This document shows positions 21,433-59,576 of a stretch of DNA of 64,000 nucleotides, in pieces. The notes beneath the pieces were generated by a model, which had not been told where the DNA came from, searched no databases, and worked only from the letters and a program-made list of their open reading frames with translations. The DNA lies in NCBI GenBank assembly GCA_030584185.1, contig CP129495.1:1079628-1143627 (forward strand), given 5' to 3'. This DNA comes from Acidimicrobiia bacterium. Lineage in GTDB: Bacteria > Actinomycetota > Acidimicrobiia > Spongiisociales > UBA11373. The position numbers and the translations under genes were made by a program. How positions within the stretch are numbered: the stretch's first letter is position 1; each line of letters opens with the position of its first letter.

Positions 21433-21684
21433 ATGACAACCCCGGTGCCTACCCGGTTCACCGAGGCGGAACTCGCCCTCATCGACGAGCTCGTGACCAA
21501 GGGCATAGGAGACAGTCGATCGGCCGTGATCCGCCGAGGCGTTCACCACCTCGCCGACGCCGTTCACCGAGCCCAGATCGGTGCCGCCATCGCAGCGTCG
21601 TATCGGGAACGGCCCCAGGGCCCCGAGGACGACGCCCTTGCCATGTCCAACGCCATCGCGATGACCGAGGCGGAACCGTGGTAG
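21433..21684 (+). CDS. type II antitoxin, ribbon-helix-helix (CopG/MazE-like)
   Basis: 83 aa; MTTPVPTRFTEAELALIDELVTKGIGDSRSAVIRRGVHHL RHH fold signature; immediately upstream of MazF-like toxin. Confidence 0.65.
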   Translation: MTTPVPTRFTEAELALIDELVTKGIGDSRSAVIRRGVHHLADAVHRAQIGAAIAASYRERPQGPEDDALAMSNAIAMTEAEPW

Positions 21685-21989
21685 CCCAGACCGAGATCTG
21701 GTTGATGGAGACGCCCAACCAGAAGCGCCGACCGGTGCTCGTCATCTCGCGCGACGAGGTCATCCCGGTCCTTGCCAACATCATCGTGGCCCCCATCACG
21801 AGCACGATCCGCAACATCCCCACCTGTATCCCGGTCGGACCCGATGAAGGCATCGACCACGACAGCGTGGCCACATTCGACAACCTCGCCGCCGTGCCCA
21901 AATCGGTGCTCACCAGACGCCTCGGCAAGCTCGGCGCCGACGGACGCCGGCTCATCTGCGAGGCCCTCGCCGCAGCTGCCAACTGTTGA
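21678..21989 (+). CDS. type II toxin, MazF/PemK-family endoribonuclease
   Basis: GTG start overlapping antitoxin stop by 7 nt; VVAQTEIWLMETPNQKRRPVLVISRDEV ... IVAPITS matches MazF/PemK core (GEIWxVDL...RPVLVxS...VAPxTS). Confidence 0.75.
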   Translation: MVAQTEIWLMETPNQKRRPVLVISRDEVIPVLANIIVAPITSTIRNIPTCIPVGPDEGIDHDSVATFDNLAAVPKSVLTRRLGKLGADGRRLICEALAAAANC

Positions 21990-22268
21990 CCGATCTCGTC
22001 GATCCCCTCCACAGCGGGGACGCATCCGGAGAGACAAGTGCCATTTCGGCGCGCCCCGGCATGCGGACGGTCGGCGCCCCTTCGAGACCCCTGACTGTGA
22101 GGATGACACTCGTAGCTCGGTGCGTGTGCTGGGCTGCTGTTGGTGGCGGCGATACACCCGCCCACCCCCCTTCCCACCGCGTCTGCCTCCCGGGCACGCC
22201 CAGGGAGTCGCTGATACTCTTACGGTGTCCGCCTGCGGGGCAGGGCGGCGTGGTCTGCGGAGGGACTG

Positions 22269-24626
22269 ATGGCACGCCTGCCGCGCGCACCGACGCTCTT
22301 GGTGGTGGTGCTCCTCCTCGCCTCCGTCGTTCCCACAGCCCTCGCCGAGGTGGGCTGGAGCCGTGCCGCCCGGTTCGGTGGCGACAACCAGACGGTGGCC
22401 TGGGCCTCGGCGATGGACCGGATGGGCAACGTCTACGCAACCGGCGTCCTCAACGGGACCGCCGACTTCGACCCTGGCGGCGGCACCTTCAACCTGACCA
22501 GCGCCGGCGCCCAGGATGTGTTCGTCGCCAAGCTCACCCCCGATGGTGATCTGCTCTGGGCGCACGCCATCGGCGGAACCAGCTCCGACGAGGGGATGGG
22601 TATCGCCACCGACCCGGCGGGGAACGTGTACGTCACCGGATACTTCATGGGCACCGTCGACTTCGACCCCGGCCCGGGCACGTCGAACCTCACCTCGGCA
22701 GGCGACCAGGACATGTTCGTCCTCAAGCTGTCCACCGACGGCGACCTGCTCTGGGCAAAGCGGATAGGCGGAGCGGGCGCCGACACCGGCTCCGCGATCG
22801 CGGTCGATCGCGGCGGCAACGTCCTCACCACGGGCTACTACACGGGCACCGTCGACTTCGACCCGGGCGCCGGTGAGGCCAACCTCCCCGGCGTGGGCGA
22901 CACCGACGCCTTCGTGTCCAAGCTCGATGCCGACGGGACCCACGTCTGGGCTCGACTCCTCGGCGGCACCGGGCCGGACGAGGGCATGGCGGTCGCCACC
23001 GACGCCGCAGGCAGCGTCTACTCGGCGGGCCGTTTCAGCGGCACCGTCGATTTCGACCCGAGCGGTGCAGTGAGCAATCGCACCTCGAACGGAGGGATCG
23101 ACGGCTACGCCTGGAGGCTCGACCCGGACGGGTACCTTGAGTGGGCCGCCCCGCTCGGCGGCGCCGGAGACGACACGGCGACGGCGATCTCGGTCGACCG
23201 TTACGACTTCGCCGTCATCGGCGGGAGCTTCGCGGGTACGGCCGACCTCGATCCTCATCCCACCGAGACCTTGAACCTGGTCTCCGCCGGCGGCCTCGAC
23301 GCCTTCCTCGTTCGGCTCGATCAGAACGGCGAGCTCTCCTGGGCCAAGCGCGCCGGTGGCGTCAACGACGACGAGGTCACCGGTGTTCACCTGGGCGGCG
23401 CCATCGAATCGGCGACCGCAACCGGCACCTTCTCGGGAACGGTCGACTTCGACCCCGGCCCCGACACCGCCTCGTCGGCCTCGGCCAATCCCGCCGGGTT
23501 CGTGTGGAAGCTGAGCGCTCTGGGCGACTACGAGGACCACGGGGCGATGTCGGGCACCGGAACCGTCCGATCCGAGGGCCTCGGCTGGGACGGCTCCGGC
23601 GGCTTCGCCGCCTCCGGCCGGCTCTTGGGGACCGCCGACTTCGACCCGGGACCGGGCGTGGCCGAACTCACGGCGAGCGGACCGCTCGATGCCTATGTCA
23701 CCACGATCGGAAAGCCGACACTGCTGACCCACATGGGCAGCAACCGCTACCACACAGCCTCCCTGGTGGGCTCCTGGGCATTCCCACGCGGCCCCAAGAC
23801 GGCTTTCGTCGCCGTCGGCACCAACTTCCCCGATGCCCTCGCCGGAGCGGCGGTGGCCGGCCTCTTGGATGCCCCCCTCTTCCTGGTCCGTTCCGACTCT
23901 ATCCCGTCGGAGACCCTCACCGGGATCACCAACATGGACCCGGACTCGATCGTCGTGCTCGGAGGGACCACCGCAGTCTCCCAGGTCGTGTTCGACCAAC
24001 TCACCGCCATCCAGACCAACACCGTGCGCGTCTTCGGGAGCAACCGCTACGCCACCGCGGTGGCGATCTCCCAGCTCGGGTTCCCGGCGACCGCCAGGAC
24101 CGTGGTGATCGCCACCGGGCTCAACTTTCCCGACGCCCTCGCCGCCGCGCCCGCTGCCGTCGTATACGGCGGTCCGGTGCTGCTCACCGATCCGAACACC
24201 GTCCCGCAGGTGGTGAGGGACGAGATCACCCGCCTGGCACCGGAACGGATTGTGGTCGTCGGCGGAACGGCGGTGATCTCCGACGATGTCGTGAACGCCT
24301 TGAAGGAGATACAGCCCAACACGGTCCGCATCGCCGGCGCCAACCGCTACGACACCGCCATCGGCCTCGCCCAGGACGCCTTCCCCGACGGTGCCAGCCG
24401 GGTGACGGTCGCCACCGGCCTCGCCTTCCCCGACGCCCTGGCGGGGGCGGCGGCGGCGGGGGCCTGGCGGGGGCCGATCCTCCTCGTCCCCGGGACCAGC
24501 CTCCCCGCTGCGGTGTCGACCGAACTCCTCCGTCTCGACCCGTTCCACGTCGACCTGCTCGGAGGGGACGCCGCGATATCGCCTCTGGTCCGCTACCAGA
24601 TCGGTGCCCTGCTGTTCGGCTGGTGA
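22269..24626 (+). CDS. secreted surface protein: SBBP beta-propeller repeats plus three cell-wall-binding repeat-2 (CWB2) domains
   Basis: Sec signal MARLPRAPTLLVVVLLLASVVPTALA; ~8 repeats of G-TVDFDPG-x-NLTSAG-DAFV-KL-DG-LWA (SBBP); C-terminal three repeats of GSNRY-TA-AIS...FP....V..ATG.NFPDALA (CW_binding_2). Confidence 0.75.
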   Translation: MARLPRAPTLLVVVLLLASVVPTALAEVGWSRAARFGGDNQTVAWASAMDRMGNVYATGVLNGTADFDPGGGTFNLTSAGAQDVFVAKLTPDGDLLWAHAIGGTSSDEGMGIATDPAGNVYVTGYFMGTVDFDPGPGTSNLTSAGDQDMFVLKLSTDGDLLWAKRIGGAGADTGSAIAVDRGGNVLTTGYYTGTVDFDPGAGEANLPGVGDTDAFVSKLDADGTHVWARLLGGTGPDEGMAVATDAAGSVYSAGRFSGTVDFDPSGAVSNRTSNGGIDGYAWRLDPDGYLEWAAPLGGAGDDTATAISVDRYDFAVIGGSFAGTADLDPHPTETLNLVSAGGLDAFLVRLDQNGELSWAKRAGGVNDDEVTGVHLGGAIESATATGTFSGTVDFDPGPDTASSASANPAGFVWKLSALGDYEDHGAMSGTGTVRSEGLGWDGSGGFAASGRLLGTADFDPGPGVAELTASGPLDAYVTTIGKPTLLTHMGSNRYHTASLVGSWAFPRGPKTAFVAVGTNFPDALAGAAVAGLLDAPLFLVRSDSIPSETLTGITNMDPDSIVVLGGTTAVSQVVFDQLTAIQTNTVRVFGSNRYATAVAISQLGFPATARTVVIATGLNFPDALAAAPAAVVYGGPVLLTDPNTVPQVVRDEITRLAPERIVVVGGTAVISDDVVNALKEIQPNTVRIAGANRYDTAIGLAQDAFPDGASRVTVATGLAFPDALAGAAAAGAWRGPILLVPGTSLPAAVSTELLRLDPFHVDLLGGDAAISPLVRYQIGALLFGW

Positions 24627-24627
24627 C

Positions 24628-25773
24628 TCAGAGCGCCCGGCACCAGGCGTCGTAGTCGACGAGCGGCGGCGGGCGGGCCTCGTCCCCGCAGGCGGGGCAG
24701 TCCCGAAGCCGCTCGAACCGCAGCGTGGTCGACTCGCCGGAGAGGGCGTCGTGGATGAGCAGCCTTCCCACCAGGGCGTCGCCGGCACCGACCAGGATCT
24801 TGATGGCCTCCACCACCTGCAGCGAGCCGATCGCCCCGGTGAGCGCCCCCAGCACCCCGCCCTCGGCGCAGTCGGCCACAGTCCCCGGATCGGGTGGCAG
24901 CGGATACAGGCAGCGGTAGCACGGCCCCCGATAGGGGTCGAAGACGGTCACCTGGCCCTCCCACCGGTACACCGAGGCGTGCACCACCGGCACCCGCAGG
25001 TGCAAGGAGGCATCGTTCACCAGGTAACGGGTCGGGAAGTTGTCGGTCCCATCGATCACCACGTCGTAGTCCGACATCACATCCAGGGCATTGCCCGCCA
25101 TGAGGGGTTCCTCCCTCGGGAGCACCTCCACGCCGGGATTGAGGCGGCACAGCGCCGCCGCCGCCGAGGCCACCTTGGGCTGTCCGATGCGGTCGGTGTC
25201 GTGGATCACCTGTCGCTGCAGGTTGGAAAGCTCCACCCGGTCGGAGTCGACGATCCCGACCGTGCCCACGCCGGCGGCCGCCAGGTACAGGGCGGCCGGT
25301 GACCCGAGCCCACCGGCCCCGATCACCAGGACCCGGGCGGCGGCTAGTCGCTCCTGGCCCGCCCCCCCGATCCCGGGCAAAGCGACGTTGCGGGCGTAGC
25401 GGGCCGGCCCGGTCCCTTCGGGAAGCATCACCTCCCTTCCCTCGATCCTCCACAGGACGATCCCCCCACTCATGGAGGCGACCCTCCCGTACCCCATCTC
25501 CCGCAGTTCGAGCCCGGCGAGCAGCGACCGCCTGCCGGTGGCACAGAACAAGACGATCTCCGCATCCCGATCGGGCGCGGCATCCGCCACCTCGTCGGCG
25601 AGCCGCTCCCACGGGACCGCCAGCGACCCGGGGATGGTCCCGGCGACGATCTCGTGGTCGTGCCGGACGTCGATCAGCACCAATCCCCCTCCGAGACGCT
25701 CCTCCACGTCACCCGGGGTGACCTCGGGGACGCGGAGCCGCGCCTCCTCCATGCGATCGACGAAGGCGGTCAC
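24628..25773 (-). CDS. sulfur-carrier-protein adenylyltransferase/sulfurtransferase (MoeZ/MoeB-like) with N-terminal rhodanese domain
   Basis: GTG start with GGAGG 8 nt upstream; rhodanese active site LFCATGRRS at N-term, then ThiF/MoeB E1 fold (VLVIGAGGLGSPAALYLAAAGVGTVGIVD, ELSNLQRQ) and Zn motifs CYRC...CPAC; ORF-track N-terminal 190 aa rejected. Confidence 0.8.
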   Translation of the reverse strand: MTAFVDRMEEARLRVPEVTPGDVEERLGGGLVLIDVRHDHEIVAGTIPGSLAVPWERLADEVADAAPDRDAEIVLFCATGRRSLLAGLELREMGYGRVASMSGGIVLWRIEGREVMLPEGTGPARYARNVALPGIGGAGQERLAAARVLVIGAGGLGSPAALYLAAAGVGTVGIVDSDRVELSNLQRQVIHDTDRIGQPKVASAAAALCRLNPGVEVLPREEPLMAGNALDVMSDYDVVIDGTDNFPTRYLVNDASLHLRVPVVHASVYRWEGQVTVFDPYRGPCYRCLYPLPPDPGTVADCAEGGVLGALTGAIGSLQVVEAIKILVGAGDALVGRLLIHDALSGESTTLRFERLRDCPACGDEARPPPLVDYDAWCRAL

Positions 25774-57619: not shown

Positions 57620-58647
57620 CGCTTCGCGTGGCCACGGTGCTGTCGGCCCGGGAGTGGGAGGCTCGACTCGTGGGAGCGGCTCGCAGCACCGCGGCCGTTC
57701 GCCTCGTGGTGCGGGCCTTCCGGCCCGACGAGATCCTGGAACGCGGCTCCGAGATCGATGTCGTCGTGGTCGGCTCCGAGGTCCCCTGGGCGACGACGGC
57801 GCGAATCGCCGCCTGGTCGCGCAGCGGGCTGCGGGTGGTGGGAGTTCACCCGGCTGGCGACCGGCCCGCCTGCGAGCGCCTGAAGGCAGGGGGTGCCGAT
57901 CTGGTGATCCCCGATGACCTCCCGGCCGAGGCCATGCTGCGCGAGATCCGCCTCCTGGAGCCGGCGTCGAGCCGAGCCGCCGTCGAGTTCCCCCTGGTCG
58001 CGGTCACCGGTCCGCGGGGGGCTCCCGGCCGCACCGAGGTTGCCCTGGCTCTGGCCTGGCTGATGGCGGGCCACGGGATCGTGGTCCTCGCCGACGGCGA
58101 CCTGGAGGCGCCCGGCGTCGCCATCCGAATGGGTGTGCCACCGCGTCCCGATCTCACCGATGCCGTGGACGAGGTTCACGGATCGGGATCGATCTCGTCT
58201 GACGCCCTCCACGCCGTGGGCCGCCTCCGGGTGCTGCCCGGGTCGCATCGACCGGGTGAGCCACCTCTGCGCATCGAGCCGGTCCAGGACGTCCTCGATG
58301 CCATCCGCTCCGACTCGGGCGTCGTCGTCGACTGCGGGCCGTGGCCCCTGCGATCGGAGTTGGTCAAGGCCGCCACCACCGCCGTCGTGGTCGTCGACTC
58401 GTCACCGCGCGGGATAGTGCGCGCCGCCGGGATGCTCGCCGAGTGGGCGGGACCGCCGCCCTGCCTGGTGCTCAACCGGCTGCCGAGGTCGGGCCGTGAA
58501 GACGCCGTGCTTGCCACCCGCCGTTGGACGGGGCTCGATCCCGTGGCGCTCATCCCCGACACGCCCCGGGTGGCTGCGGCGGCCCGGGCGGGAGCACCAC
58601 CGGCCCGCCCGCTCCTGAAGCACCTCCACGCGGTGGCCGGCCGATGA
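57616..58647 (+). CDS. cpaE: Flp pilus assembly protein TadZ/CpaE-like (receiver-like N-domain plus ParA/MinD-like domain with degenerate Walker A)
   Basis: ATGA overlap with cpaB; N-terminal REC-like fold; ParA-like region VAVTGPRGAPGRTEVALALAWLMAGHGIVVLADGDL where the deviant Walker A lysine/threonine are replaced (GAPGRTE). Confidence 0.7.
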   Translation: MTLRVATVLSAREWEARLVGAARSTAAVRLVVRAFRPDEILERGSEIDVVVVGSEVPWATTARIAAWSRSGLRVVGVHPAGDRPACERLKAGGADLVIPDDLPAEAMLREIRLLEPASSRAAVEFPLVAVTGPRGAPGRTEVALALAWLMAGHGIVVLADGDLEAPGVAIRMGVPPRPDLTDAVDEVHGSGSISSDALHAVGRLRVLPGSHRPGEPPLRIEPVQDVLDAIRSDSGVVVDCGPWPLRSELVKAATTAVVVVDSSPRGIVRAAGMLAEWAGPPPCLVLNRLPRSGREDAVLATRRWTGLDPVALIPDTPRVAAAARAGAPPARPLLKHLHAVAGR

Positions 58648-59576
58648 CCGGGTTCCTCGCCGACGTGCTCGCCGATCCTCTGGTCGAAGAGGTCATCGTT
58701 CACGGCGGAGAGCGCACCTTCGTGGTGCGCCAGGGCGAGAAGCGACTTCTGCCCATCGTCTCCGACCCCGACTCGGTGCGAGACCTGGTCGAGCGTCTCC
58801 TGAGCGGCACCGGAAGGCGGCTCGACCTGGCCAGCCCGATCGTCTCCGCACAGCTCCCCGATGGCAGCCGCCTCCATGTGACCGGACCGCCCGTGACCCG
58901 ACCCGGAAACCTCAACGTCCAGATCCGGCGGTTCGTGGTCGCAGCCTCGGGCATGGAGGAGCTGGCGCGCCGCGGCAGCGTCCCATCCGAGATCGCCGAA
59001 CTGCTCGCGACGGCCATCGCCGACGACCGGACGGTGCTGGTGGCGGGAGCGCCGGGGGCCGGCAAGACGACCCTCGCCGGGTGTCTGCTGGCAGCGGTGC
59101 CTCCCGACCGTCGCGTCGTCACCTGTGAGGAGGTCTTCGAGATCTCGGTCGAGCTCCCCGACATGACCCGCATGCAGACCCGCGACGAGGGCCTCGACGG
59201 AGGAGCCGCCATCACGCTGCGCGATCTGGTGCGGGCGTCGCTGAGGCAGCGCCCCGACCGCATCGTGGTCGGAGAGGTGAGGGGTCCCGAGGCTCTCGAC
59301 CTCCTACTCGCCCTCAATGCCGGGTGCTCCGGGCTGGCCACGCTCCATGCCAACTCGGCGATCGACGCCCTCGACAAGCTGGTCGGCTACTGCGTGCTCG
59401 CCGGCTCCAACGTGTCCATCGACTACGTCCGCTCGGCCCTGGCGGCGGTCACCGACCTGGTGGTGTTCCTGCGACGCAGTCCCGAAGGCAGGCGGGTCGA
59501 GGAGGTCGCCCAGGTCACGGGATGGGATGGAGCGTGCTGGACCCACGAGATGCTCTACCGGGCGGCCGGAGGATGA
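58644..59576 (+). CDS. cpaF: Flp pilus assembly ATPase TadA/CpaF (secretion NTPase)
   Basis: Walker A GAPGAGKTT, Asp box/Walker B RIVVGEVRGPEA, His box LATLHANSA. Confidence 0.9.
   Translation: MTGFLADVLADPLVEEVIVHGGERTFVVRQGEKRLLPIVSDPDSVRDLVERLLSGTGRRLDLASPIVSAQLPDGSRLHVTGPPVTRPGNLNVQIRRFVVAASGMEELARRGSVPSEIAELLATAIADDRTVLVAGAPGAGKTTLAGCLLAAVPPDRRVVTCEEVFEISVELPDMTRMQTRDEGLDGGAAITLRDLVRASLRQRPDRIVVGEVRGPEALDLLLALNAGCSGLATLHANSAIDALDKLVGYCVLAGSNVSIDYVRSALAAVTDLVVFLRRSPEGRRVEEVAQVTGWDGACWTHEMLYRAAGG

What the first reader, a model, noticed from the sequence alone, without database searches (positions are those of the whole stretch)
22269..24626. 785-aa secreted SBBP beta-propeller protein with three CWB2 repeats (candidate cell-surface/S-layer-associated protein)
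About eight SBBP repeats follow a Sec signal, each containing a TVDFDPG core. Three C-terminal copies of the clostridial-type cell-wall-binding repeat 2 follow (GSNRYATA...NFPDALA...), which in Firmicutes anchors S-layer/Cwp proteins to secondary cell-wall polymers. Finding CWB2 in a high-GC actinobacterial-type genome suggests a related polymer-anchoring mechanism. A 1074-aa antisense ORF across it is a high-GC artefact.
Basis: partly seen in the sequence, partly recalled or inferred. Interest (0 to 1): 0.5.

Follow-up and report, generated by a model that had tools for sequence, protein, structure and literature searches.

The report
Wall-anchored propeller protein of an Acidimicrobiia bacterium
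This is a real gene for a secreted protein made of a seven-bladed propeller and a three-part module that probably holds it on the Gram-positive cell wall. It is an ordinary combination of two known, widely shuffled modules and is already in the public databases.

Summary
Window 22269..24626 (+) encodes a 785-aa protein with a Sec-type signal peptide, seven (not about eight) 65-aa SBBP repeats and three 100-aa CWB2 repeats. Pfam scores are CW_binding_2 174 bits (cut-off 24.9) and SBBP 56 bits (cut-off 20.5). The 1074-aa antisense ORF is a high-GC artefact.

AlphaFold2 gives a closed seven-bladed propeller (pLDDT 94.7). Its only close solved relative is the CylK propeller. The CWB2 part is predicted as a triad that superposes on C. 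difficile SlpA-HMW, Cwp6 and Cwp8.

The exact protein is NCBI WKZ83727.1, "cell wall-binding repeat-containing protein", from a 2.21-Mb Acidimicrobiia MAG. A published review already records CWB2 in Actinobacteria, and my search found many actinobacterial CWB2 triplets. The phylum-level surprise therefore disappears.

The same genome carries a cluster of at least six CWB2 proteins, interleaved with a TuaD-like UDP-glucose dehydrogenase and glycosyltransferases. This resembles the C. difficile cwp/anionic-polymer arrangement.

The suggested csaB check targets the SLH system, not CWB2. Nothing supports an S-layer role.

Best reading: a non-covalently wall-anchored, surface-displayed binding propeller. 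It is a new member of a known kind and of low interest.

The parts
22259..22264 (+). Shine-Dalgarno-like GGAGGG, 4 nt upstream of the ATG
   Evidence: Read directly from the sequence. NCBI's gene call uses the same start: WKZ83727.1 is 785 aa and an exact match.
22269..22346 (+). Sec-type signal peptide, aa 1-26 (MARLPR / hydrophobic core / TALA|EV)
   Evidence: Hydropathy and the A-x-A rule. No RR motif and no Cys. The n-h-c pattern is kept in the 93% orthologue despite 5 substitutions.
22350..23717 (+). Seven SBBP-type repeats, aa 28-483, forming a seven-bladed beta-propeller. Blade boundaries are aa 28/93/158/223/288/355/419. Each blade has four core strands plus an extra hairpin that carries the DFDPG motif.
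   Evidence: Pfam SBBP 56.1 bits. Repeat alignment. AF2 domain model with pLDDT 94.7 and pTM 0.93, all seven repeats folded. Foldseek hit to the CylK propeller, TM 0.72.
23727..24026 (+). CWB2 repeat 1, aa 487-586 (GSNRY 490, PLFL 536)
   Evidence: Pfam CW_binding_2; AF2 pLDDT above 90.
24027..24326 (+). CWB2 repeat 2, aa 587-686 (GSNRY 590, PVLL 636)
   Evidence: Pfam CW_binding_2, best stretch 587-675.
24327..24626 (+). CWB2 repeat 3, aa 687-785 (GANRY 690, PILL 736), plus the TGA stop
   Evidence: Pfam CW_binding_2. The stop lies 1 nt from the stop of the convergent ThiF/rhodanese gene.
21564..24788 (-). 1074-aa antisense ORF: not a gene
   Evidence: GC1/2/3 = 0.84/0.58/0.68, against 0.68/0.54/0.89 for the sense frame. 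It is not called in public assemblies of the same locus.

Best explanation
The gene encodes a surface-displayed protein of a monoderm Acidimicrobiia bacterium. The proposed sequence of events is as follows. (1) The protein is exported by Sec and the signal peptide is cleaved after Ala26 (inferred from sequence rules). (2) The three non-identical C-terminal CWB2 repeats fold together into one pseudo-threefold triangular prism (predicted with high confidence). This prism binds non-covalently to a secondary cell-wall glycopolymer attached to peptidoglycan, as shown for C. difficile Cwp proteins and PSII. The ligand here is inferred. It is most likely an anionic, possibly uronic-acid-containing polymer, because the genome's main CWB2 gene cluster is interleaved with a TuaD-like UDP-glucose dehydrogenase and glycosyltransferases. 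(3) The N-terminal seven-bladed SBBP propeller is thereby held at the cell surface as the functional head. I take it to be a ligand-binding or adhesive module rather than an enzyme. All of its conserved positions are repeat-framework positions with no blade-specific catalytic constellation. The same propeller type is fused in other phyla to other surface-targeting devices: the T9SS C-terminal domain, dockerin, and a lipoprotein anchor in the matrix-binding LipL53. Its actual ligand is unknown.
For: Domain content. Seven 65-aa and three 100-aa repeats. Signal peptide features and absence of Cys. The CWB2 region has pLDDT mostly 90-98 and superposes on SlpA-HMW 7acy_B (TMt 0.71, rmsd 2.5 A), Cwp8 5j6q (rmsd 2.5 A, 24% id) and Cwp6 5j72. 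Sequence hits are Cwp6 E 6.5e-25 and Cwp8 E 1.9e-17. A PILL-type motif, shown to be essential for anchoring in Cwp66, is present in all three repeats. Three repeats are required in C. difficile and the ligand there is PSII. The host is an Acidimicrobiia MAG. The same 2.21-Mb genome encodes P0222 (M23+CWB2), which sits in a cluster of at least six CWB2 proteins (fn3, SpoIID, S8, M23, GH26). These are interleaved with a nucleotide-sugar dehydrogenase (TuaD model 400 bits; TIGR03026 408 bits, above its cut-off), two GT2 enzymes and a GT-C-like protein. The propeller model is closed at pLDDT 94.7. SBBP homologues carry T9SS CTD, dockerin and other anchors, and SBBP-HYR-CWB2 relatives exist. Conserved columns are only repeat-consensus positions. 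Selection is purifying and stronger on CWB2 (dN/dS 0.16) than on the propeller (0.29). [quoted passage not shown]
Against: There is no experimental datum for this protein or for any actinobacterial CWB2 protein in the literature I could search. The wall polymer of this uncultured organism is unknown. The glycosyltransferase cluster lies elsewhere in the genome and was not shown to be homologous to the C. difficile AP locus or CD2777. No wall-polymer genes lie in the 64-kb window. The only solved close relative of the propeller, CylK, is an enzyme, so a catalytic role is not excluded. Alignment of internally repeated domains can blur blade-specific conservation. The signal peptide was not scored with a dedicated predictor.
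Confidence: 0.7

Rival explanations
1. Wall-anchored enzyme. The propeller is catalytic, like CylK/BrtB alkyl-halide-using enzymes or propeller lactonases and lyases, and the CWB2 triplet merely localises it. The other CWB2 proteins of this genome carry catalytic heads in this way.
For: CylK is the only close solved relative (phmmer E 2.8e-25; TM 0.72). The other CWB2 proteins in the genome's cluster have enzymatic heads: SpoIID, S8, M23 and GH26.
Against: The CylK active site lies between the propeller and an N-terminal Ca-binding beta-roll that supplies the essential Arg105 (PMC8916777). That domain is absent here, since the propeller starts right after the signal peptide. None of the window ORFs scanned against Pfam looks like a natural-product biosynthesis gene, so no halogenase or PKS neighbour was seen. 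No blade-specific conserved residues were found across 78 homologues.
Confidence: 0.15
2. It is the S-layer lattice protein of the organism, or a structural S-layer component, analogous to SlpA.
For: The CWB2 triad is the anchor of the C. difficile S-layer (PMC8881574). There is a weak NCBIfam SlpA hit.
Against: The SlpA model scores 43.9 bits against a cut-off of 650, and only over the CWB2 part. The gene stands alone between a toxin-antitoxin pair and a sulfur-carrier activation gene, not in an S-layer or secretion cassette. CWB2 anchors occur on many non-S-layer proteins and in species without S-layers. No S-layer is known to me in Acidimicrobiia (my own knowledge).
Confidence: 0.05
3. The CWB2 triplet binds peptidoglycan itself, or has a non-anchoring role, rather than binding a secondary wall polymer. 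The protein would then be wall-associated but by a different mechanism from the C. difficile one.
For: The CWB2 ligand has been shown experimentally only in C. difficile. CWB2 was first defined in the B. subtilis amidase CwlB/LytC. No polymer genes are adjacent in the window.
Against: The fold and the PILL motif are conserved. CWB2 genes cluster with glycopolymer-type genes elsewhere in the same genome. In Firmicutes, CWB2 co-distributes with a specific SCWP synthase.
Confidence: 0.1

Closest known systems
[quoted passage not shown]
   Same: It has three tandem, non-identical CWB2 repeats (about 40% identical to each other), each with a PILL-type motif. The predicted pseudo-threefold prism superposes on 7acy_B, 5j6q and 5j72. 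The layout is signal peptide plus a variable functional head. The genome carries a multi-gene CWB2 family clustered with glycopolymer genes, as in the slpA/cwp and AP locus arrangement.
   Different: The host is a high-GC Acidimicrobiia, not a Firmicute. Sequence identity to Cwp6/Cwp8 is only about 17-24%. The head is an SBBP propeller, which to my knowledge is not among the described C. difficile Cwp heads. The ligand polymer is unknown and unlikely to be PSII itself. There is no evidence of an S-layer, SecA2 or Cwp84-type processing.
Actinobacterial and Chloroflexota 'cell wall-binding repeat-containing proteins' (NCBI name), e.g. in Xylanimonas ulmi, Agromyces kandeliae, Intrasporangium and Cryobacterium, and the paralogues of the same MAG (P0222)
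   Same: The C-terminal CWB2 triplets are 40-57% identical and carry the same annotation. It is the same kind of modular exoprotein.
   Different: Most carry CAP, M23, S8, NlpC/P60, amidase or GSDH heads. The SBBP head is rare among them: among the 120 best hits listed for the full-length query, only P0001, P0018 and P0022 combine SBBP and CWB2.
SBBP (PF06739) propeller surface proteins: Bacteroidota proteins with two tandem propellers and a T9SS C-terminal domain; Leptospira LipL53-family lipoproteins
   Same: The same 65-aa repeat with the consensus WAK..GG...D.G..IA.D.SGNVY.TG.F.GT.DFDPG.G..NLTS.G..DIF..K.DASGN, at 37-48% identity over the propeller. They are surface-displayed.
   Different: This protein has a single propeller instead of two. 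Its anchor is CWB2 rather than a T9SS CTD or a lipid. The LipL53 NCBIfam model scores 97 bits against a cut-off of 400, and there is no lipobox.
CylK (PDB 7fh6/7ron), cyanobacterial Friedel-Crafts alkylating enzyme
   Same: A seven-bladed propeller of the same repeat family, with TM 0.72 and 22-23% identity.
   Different: This protein lacks the N-terminal Ca-binding beta-roll domain that forms half of the CylK active site (Arg105). It has an extra DFDPG hairpin per blade, which aligns to gaps in CylK. It is secreted and wall-anchored.

Membership tests
CWB2-anchored cell wall proteins (Cwp-like) | Three tandem CW_binding_2 (PF04122) repeats above the Pfam gathering score | tested here: met
   174.3 bits against 24.9, three stretches. 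Period of exactly 100 aa.
CWB2-anchored cell wall proteins (Cwp-like) | Conserved P-[ILV]-[ILV]-[IV]-type ('PILL') motif in each repeat, required for anchoring in Cwp66 | tested here: met
   PLFL536, PVLL636 and PILL736. The motif definition and mutagenesis are in PMC4973711. Repeat 1 has F at the third position, a conservative departure.
CWB2-anchored cell wall proteins (Cwp-like) | The repeats fold together into a pseudo-threefold triangular prism | tested here: met
   In the AF2 model, residues 481-780 have pLDDT mostly 90-98. Foldseek gives 7acy_B TMt 0.71 at rmsd 2.5 A and 5j6q at rmsd 2.5 A. This is a prediction, not an experiment.
CWB2-anchored cell wall proteins (Cwp-like) | N-terminal secretion signal; monoderm host | tested here: met
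   An n/h/c signal with ALA|E and no lipobox. The host is named Acidimicrobiia (Actinomycetota) by NCBI. No SignalP-type predictor was available.
CWB2-anchored cell wall proteins (Cwp-like) | Non-covalent binding to an anionic secondary wall polymer (PSII in C. difficile) | not testable with these tools
   Requires a binding assay with wall polymer of the host.
CWB2-anchored cell wall proteins (Cwp-like) | The genome encodes a cognate wall-polymer pathway that co-occurs with the CWB2 family | tested here: inconclusive
   A CWB2 gene cluster in the same genome is interleaved with a TuaD-like dehydrogenase, two GT2 enzymes and a GT-C-like protein. Homology to the C. difficile AP locus or CD2777 and the presence of LCP ligases were not tested, because the whole genome was not available.
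SBBP beta-propeller (PF06739) | SBBP repeats above the Pfam gathering score that form a closed propeller | tested here: met
   56.1 bits against 20.5. Seven repeats. Closed seven-bladed model with pLDDT 94.7 and pTM 0.93.
S-layer protein SlpA (NCBIfam NF033435) | Full-length match above the curated cut-off; lattice-forming head | tested here: not met
   43.9 bits against a cut-off of 650, and the match covers the CWB2 part only. Lattice formation is not testable here.
CylK/BrtB alkylating enzymes | [quoted passage not shown] | tested here: not met
   The propeller begins at aa 27-28, directly after the signal peptide. The CylK match covers only CylK residues about 256-643. The requirement is from PMC8916777.
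LipL53-family SBBP lipoproteins (NF047494) | Score above the cut-off and a lipoprotein signal (lipobox Cys) | tested here: not met
   97.4 bits against 400. The protein contains no Cys.
   There is no SLH hit in the protein. No PS_pyruv_trans or SLH hit appeared in any window ORF scanned. The whole genome was not searched.

The most novel reading that the evidence does not exclude
This uncultured Acidimicrobiia lineage organises much of its exoproteome with a C. difficile-like CWB2 system. It has at least seven CWB2 proteins, and most of them lie in one cluster with genes for a uronic-acid-containing (teichuronic-acid-like) wall polymer that would be the CWB2 ligand. In this reading the CWB2 triad is a general reader of anionic wall glycopolymers across monoderm phyla. 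The SBBP-CWB2 protein would be that organism's adhesin or particle-binding head, giving a first handle on the function of the very large 'DFDPG' SBBP propeller family, for which I found no ligand or function reported in the papers I searched.
Probability: 0.3. Interest if true: 0.4.

Novelty: new member of a known kind. Interest (0 to 1): 0.2.

Why it matters
It matters little for this gene alone. It is a correctly recognised, already deposited and generically annotated modular surface protein. There are two modest points of value. First, all experimental knowledge of CWB2 anchoring comes from C. difficile and Bacillus. A compact Acidimicrobiia genome with a clustered CWB2 family next to glycopolymer genes would be a clean comparative case for asking which wall polymers CWB2 triads read outside Firmicutes. 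Second, the SBBP 'DFDPG' propeller is a very abundant surface module. More than 7,700 database clusters matched the full-length query, and the 120 best listed are almost all propeller matches. In different phyla the module is attached to whatever surface anchor the phylum uses, yet I found no ligand reported for it.

Tried and rejected
1. Genome-collection scan with the protein. It found only a weak Ignavibacteriales SBBP hit, so the organism is apparently not among the GTDB representatives reachable by the peptide patterns. The organism was identified instead by exact-sequence look-up.

2. First full-length AF2 run with a mixed MAFFT alignment. Repeat 7 (aa 417-480) came out at pLDDT about 30. 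Inspection showed that blades 3-6 had only 3-8 aligned sequences and that repeat 7 was contaminated with misaligned non-homologous heads of CWB2 proteins. I rejected this as evidence for a six-bladed or open propeller. A clean propeller alignment gave seven blades at pLDDT 94.7.

3. Regulatory RNA, promoter and terminator scans around the gene found nothing meaningful. There was one sub-threshold miRNA-model hit inside the coding sequence and no promoter-like or terminator-like sites.

4. Search for other CWB2 or SBBP genes in the window by tblastn found none.

5. Search for wall-polymer, SLH or CsaB genes among window ORFs found none.

6. Test for diversifying selection on the surface head. 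dN/dS is 0.29, so there is no gene-level signal.

7. A CylK-like enzyme reading was considered and rejected as a membership claim, because the catalytic N-terminal domain is missing.

8. Literature search for experimental work on CWB2 in Actinobacteria. Most 'CWB2' hits were the unrelated strain Gordonia rubripertincta CWB2.
Full report

Yes. The ORF at 22269..24626 (+) encodes 785 aa. GC content by codon position is 0.68/0.54/0.89, the signature of a true reading frame in this 69% GC sequence. The 1074-aa antisense ORF (21564..24788) shows 0.84/0.58/0.68, and a 504-aa ORF in another + frame shows 0.88/0.68/0.55. Both are typical shadow ORFs.

A GGAGGG Shine-Dalgarno-like sequence lies 4 nt upstream of the ATG. 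The identical 785-aa sequence is NCBI WKZ83727.1, with the same start. Against a 93%-identical orthologue in a syntenic metagenome contig (L003), dN/dS is 0.26. This lies within the range of the neighbouring genes (0.16-0.37), so the gene is functional and under purifying selection.

**2. Anatomy**

Pfam gives CW_binding_2 at 174.3 bits (cut-off 24.9, three stretches) and SBBP at 56.1 bits (cut-off 20.5).

- **Propeller repeats.** Cutting the N-terminal part at the D[FL]DP cores gives seven repeats, at aa 28, 93, 158, 223, 288, 355 and 419. The period is 64-67 aa. The count is not about eight. The cores read TVDFDP four times, TADFDP twice and TADLDP once.
- **CWB2 repeats.** The C-terminal part is three repeats with a period of exactly 100 aa. 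GxNRY falls at 490/590/690 and PLFL/PVLL/PILL at 536/636/736. The repeats are about 40% identical to each other.
- **Signal peptide.** The first 26 residues have two Arg, a 16-residue hydrophobic core and TALA|EV. There is no twin-arginine motif, and the protein contains no cysteine, so it is not a lipoprotein. This is a rule-based call, because no signal-peptide predictor was available.

**3. Structure**

A first full-length AlphaFold2 run (pLDDT 83) gave a very confident CWB2 region and six confident blades, but a disordered seventh repeat. I traced this to a poor mixed alignment.

With a clean alignment of 78 propeller homologues, the domain (aa 27-490) folds as a closed seven-bladed propeller with pLDDT 94.7 and pTM 0.93. 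Each blade has four strands plus a small extra hairpin that carries the DFDPG motif, which explains the unusually long 65-aa period.

Foldseek against the PDB finds only one close relative of the propeller, the seven-bladed C-terminal domain of CylK (TM 0.72, 22-23% identity). All other hits are generic propellers with TM below 0.5. phmmer agrees, with CylK at E 2.8e-25.

The CWB2 part superposes on C. difficile SlpA-HMW (7acy_B, TMt 0.71, rmsd 2.5 A), Cwp8 (5j6q, rmsd 2.5 A) and Cwp6 (5j72). By sequence it matches Cwp6 (E 6.5e-25) and Cwp8 (E 1.9e-17).

**4. Organism and context**

Exact look-ups place this protein and several neighbours on a 2,211,559-bp contig named 'Acidimicrobiia bacterium' (MAG). 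NCBI's name for the protein is 'cell wall-binding repeat-containing protein'. The exact protein recurs in 73 blocks of Logan assemblies.

In the window the gene stands alone.
- Upstream is an RHH/PemK toxin-antitoxin pair.
- Downstream and convergent, with stops 1 nt apart, is a rhodanese-ThiF (MoeZ-like) gene followed by a JAB-domain gene.
- No other CWB2 or SBBP gene is present in the 64 kb.
- No wall-polymer, SLH or pyruvyltransferase gene is present either.

Elsewhere in the same genome the picture is different. P0222 (Peptidase_M23 + CWB2) is an NCBI protein on a contig of the same 2,211,559-bp length, and its CWB2 region is 48% identical to ours. It lies in a cluster of at least six CWB2-triplet proteins, with fn3, SpoIID, subtilase S8, M23 and GH26 heads. 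These are interleaved with four other genes:
- a nucleotide-sugar dehydrogenase whose best match is the teichuronic-acid enzyme TuaD (400 bits, below the equivalog cut-off of 700; it passes the TIGR03026 subfamily model);
- two GT2 glycosyltransferases;
- a GT-C-like (PMT_2) protein.

This mirrors the C. difficile layout, where the slpA/cwp cluster adjoins the anionic-polymer locus (PMC4973711).

**5. Mechanism**

Shown in C. difficile:
- Three CWB2 repeats are needed.
- They are not interchangeable.
- The PILL motif is essential.
- The triad forms a prism with positive patches on the wall-facing side.
- The ligand is the anionic polymer PSII.

Shown here: the three repeats, the motif and the predicted fold.

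Inferred here: export by Sec; non-covalent anchoring of the triad to an anionic wall glycopolymer, possibly uronic-acid-containing given the TuaD-like gene; and display of the propeller at the surface.

For the propeller I favour a binding or adhesive role, for three reasons.
- Across 78 homologues every conserved column is a repeat-framework position, and no blade carries unique conserved residues.
- The same propeller is fused to whichever surface anchor a phylum uses. In Bacteroidota this is a T9SS C-terminal domain, usually with two tandem propellers. Elsewhere it is a dockerin, a lipid anchor in the Leptospira LipL53 family, or CWB2 with or without HYR domains in P0001, P0018 and P0022.
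- LipL53-type proteins are reported to bind extracellular-matrix molecules.

A catalytic role is the main rival, because CylK is an enzyme. However, the CylK active site needs an N-terminal Ca-binding beta-roll that contributes the essential Arg105 (PMC8916777). That domain is absent here.

**6. Comparison with the known, and novelty**

CWB2 in Actinobacteria is already documented. [quoted passage not shown] My CWB2-only search returned 1349 hits. The named ones are Actinomycetota and Chloroflexota proteins with many different heads. Recent work describes CWB2, SLH and SH3 anchors as swappable modules on whole surface proteomes, including species without S-layers, with polymer-synthesis enzymes co-distributing with their own anchor type (bioRxiv 10.1101/2025.04.02.646754).

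There is no evidence for an S-layer role: the SlpA model scores 43.9 bits against a cut-off of 650.

The protein is thus a new, uncharacterised member of a known kind, namely CWB2-anchored modular wall proteins. Its head-anchor combination is uncommon but not unique.

**7. Verdict**

The feature is ordinary. The only mildly interesting extension is the clustered CWB2 family next to glycopolymer genes in this Acidimicrobiia genome. It could serve as a comparative system for CWB2-polymer recognition outside Firmicutes. Interest 0.2.

Noticed in passing
L005:1-17841 (Logan SRR25343891; the same Acidimicrobiia genome): A cluster of at least six CWB2-triplet proteins (fn3, SpoIID, Peptidase_S8, Peptidase_M23 and GH26-like heads, plus one truncated at the locus edge). 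They are interleaved with a TuaD-like UDP-glucose dehydrogenase, two GT2 glycosyltransferases and a GT-C-like PMT_2 protein. The layout resembles the C. difficile cwp and anionic-polymer locus.
   Followed up: partly
window:13911-19983: A 6.07-kb segment is absent from the 94-97%-identical relative L003, where the CN_hydrolase and GSDH genes are adjacent. It has lower GC (0.62-0.66). It carries a PG_binding_1 protein, an ABC ATPase plus FtsX-type permease, and three minus-strand ORFs (350, 226 and 105 aa) with no Pfam match. It looks like a strain-variable island.
   Followed up: partly
window:21433-21989: A type II toxin-antitoxin pair lies directly upstream of the finding. It consists of an 83-aa RHH/CopG-like antitoxin (weak hit, 17.9 bits) that overlaps by 7 nt a 103-aa PemK/MazF toxin.
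   Followed up: no
window:24628-26475: Convergent with the finding are a rhodanese-ThiF (MoeZ-like) adenylyltransferase and an overlapping Prok-JAB (Mec-like) gene, followed by a DUF4342 gene. This set is typical of sulfur-carrier or ubiquitin-like protein activation systems.
   Followed up: no
window:30270-31676 and window:14567-15655: Two further exported wall-associated proteins use a different anchor, PG_binding_1. One is a 468-aa protein with four repeats (258 bits) and a weak transglycosylase-like hit. The other is a 362-aa protein inside the island. The organism therefore uses at least two wall-binding module types.
   Followed up: no
window:57616-61610: A probable Tad/Flp-type pilus segment, with a T2SSE/CpaF-like ATPase (58524-59576) followed by a weak T2SSF/TadB-like ORF. 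The 59.5-62.3 kb stretch has many overlapping ORFs with no clear GC3 signal, so gene calls there are uncertain.
   Followed up: no
A2 alignment (78 homologues found): Most SBBP relatives, mainly Bacteroidota, carry two tandem seven-repeat propellers of the same 65-aa 'DFDPG' repeat plus a T9SS C-terminal domain. This is a very large family. I found no ligand or function reported for it in the papers searched.
   Followed up: partly
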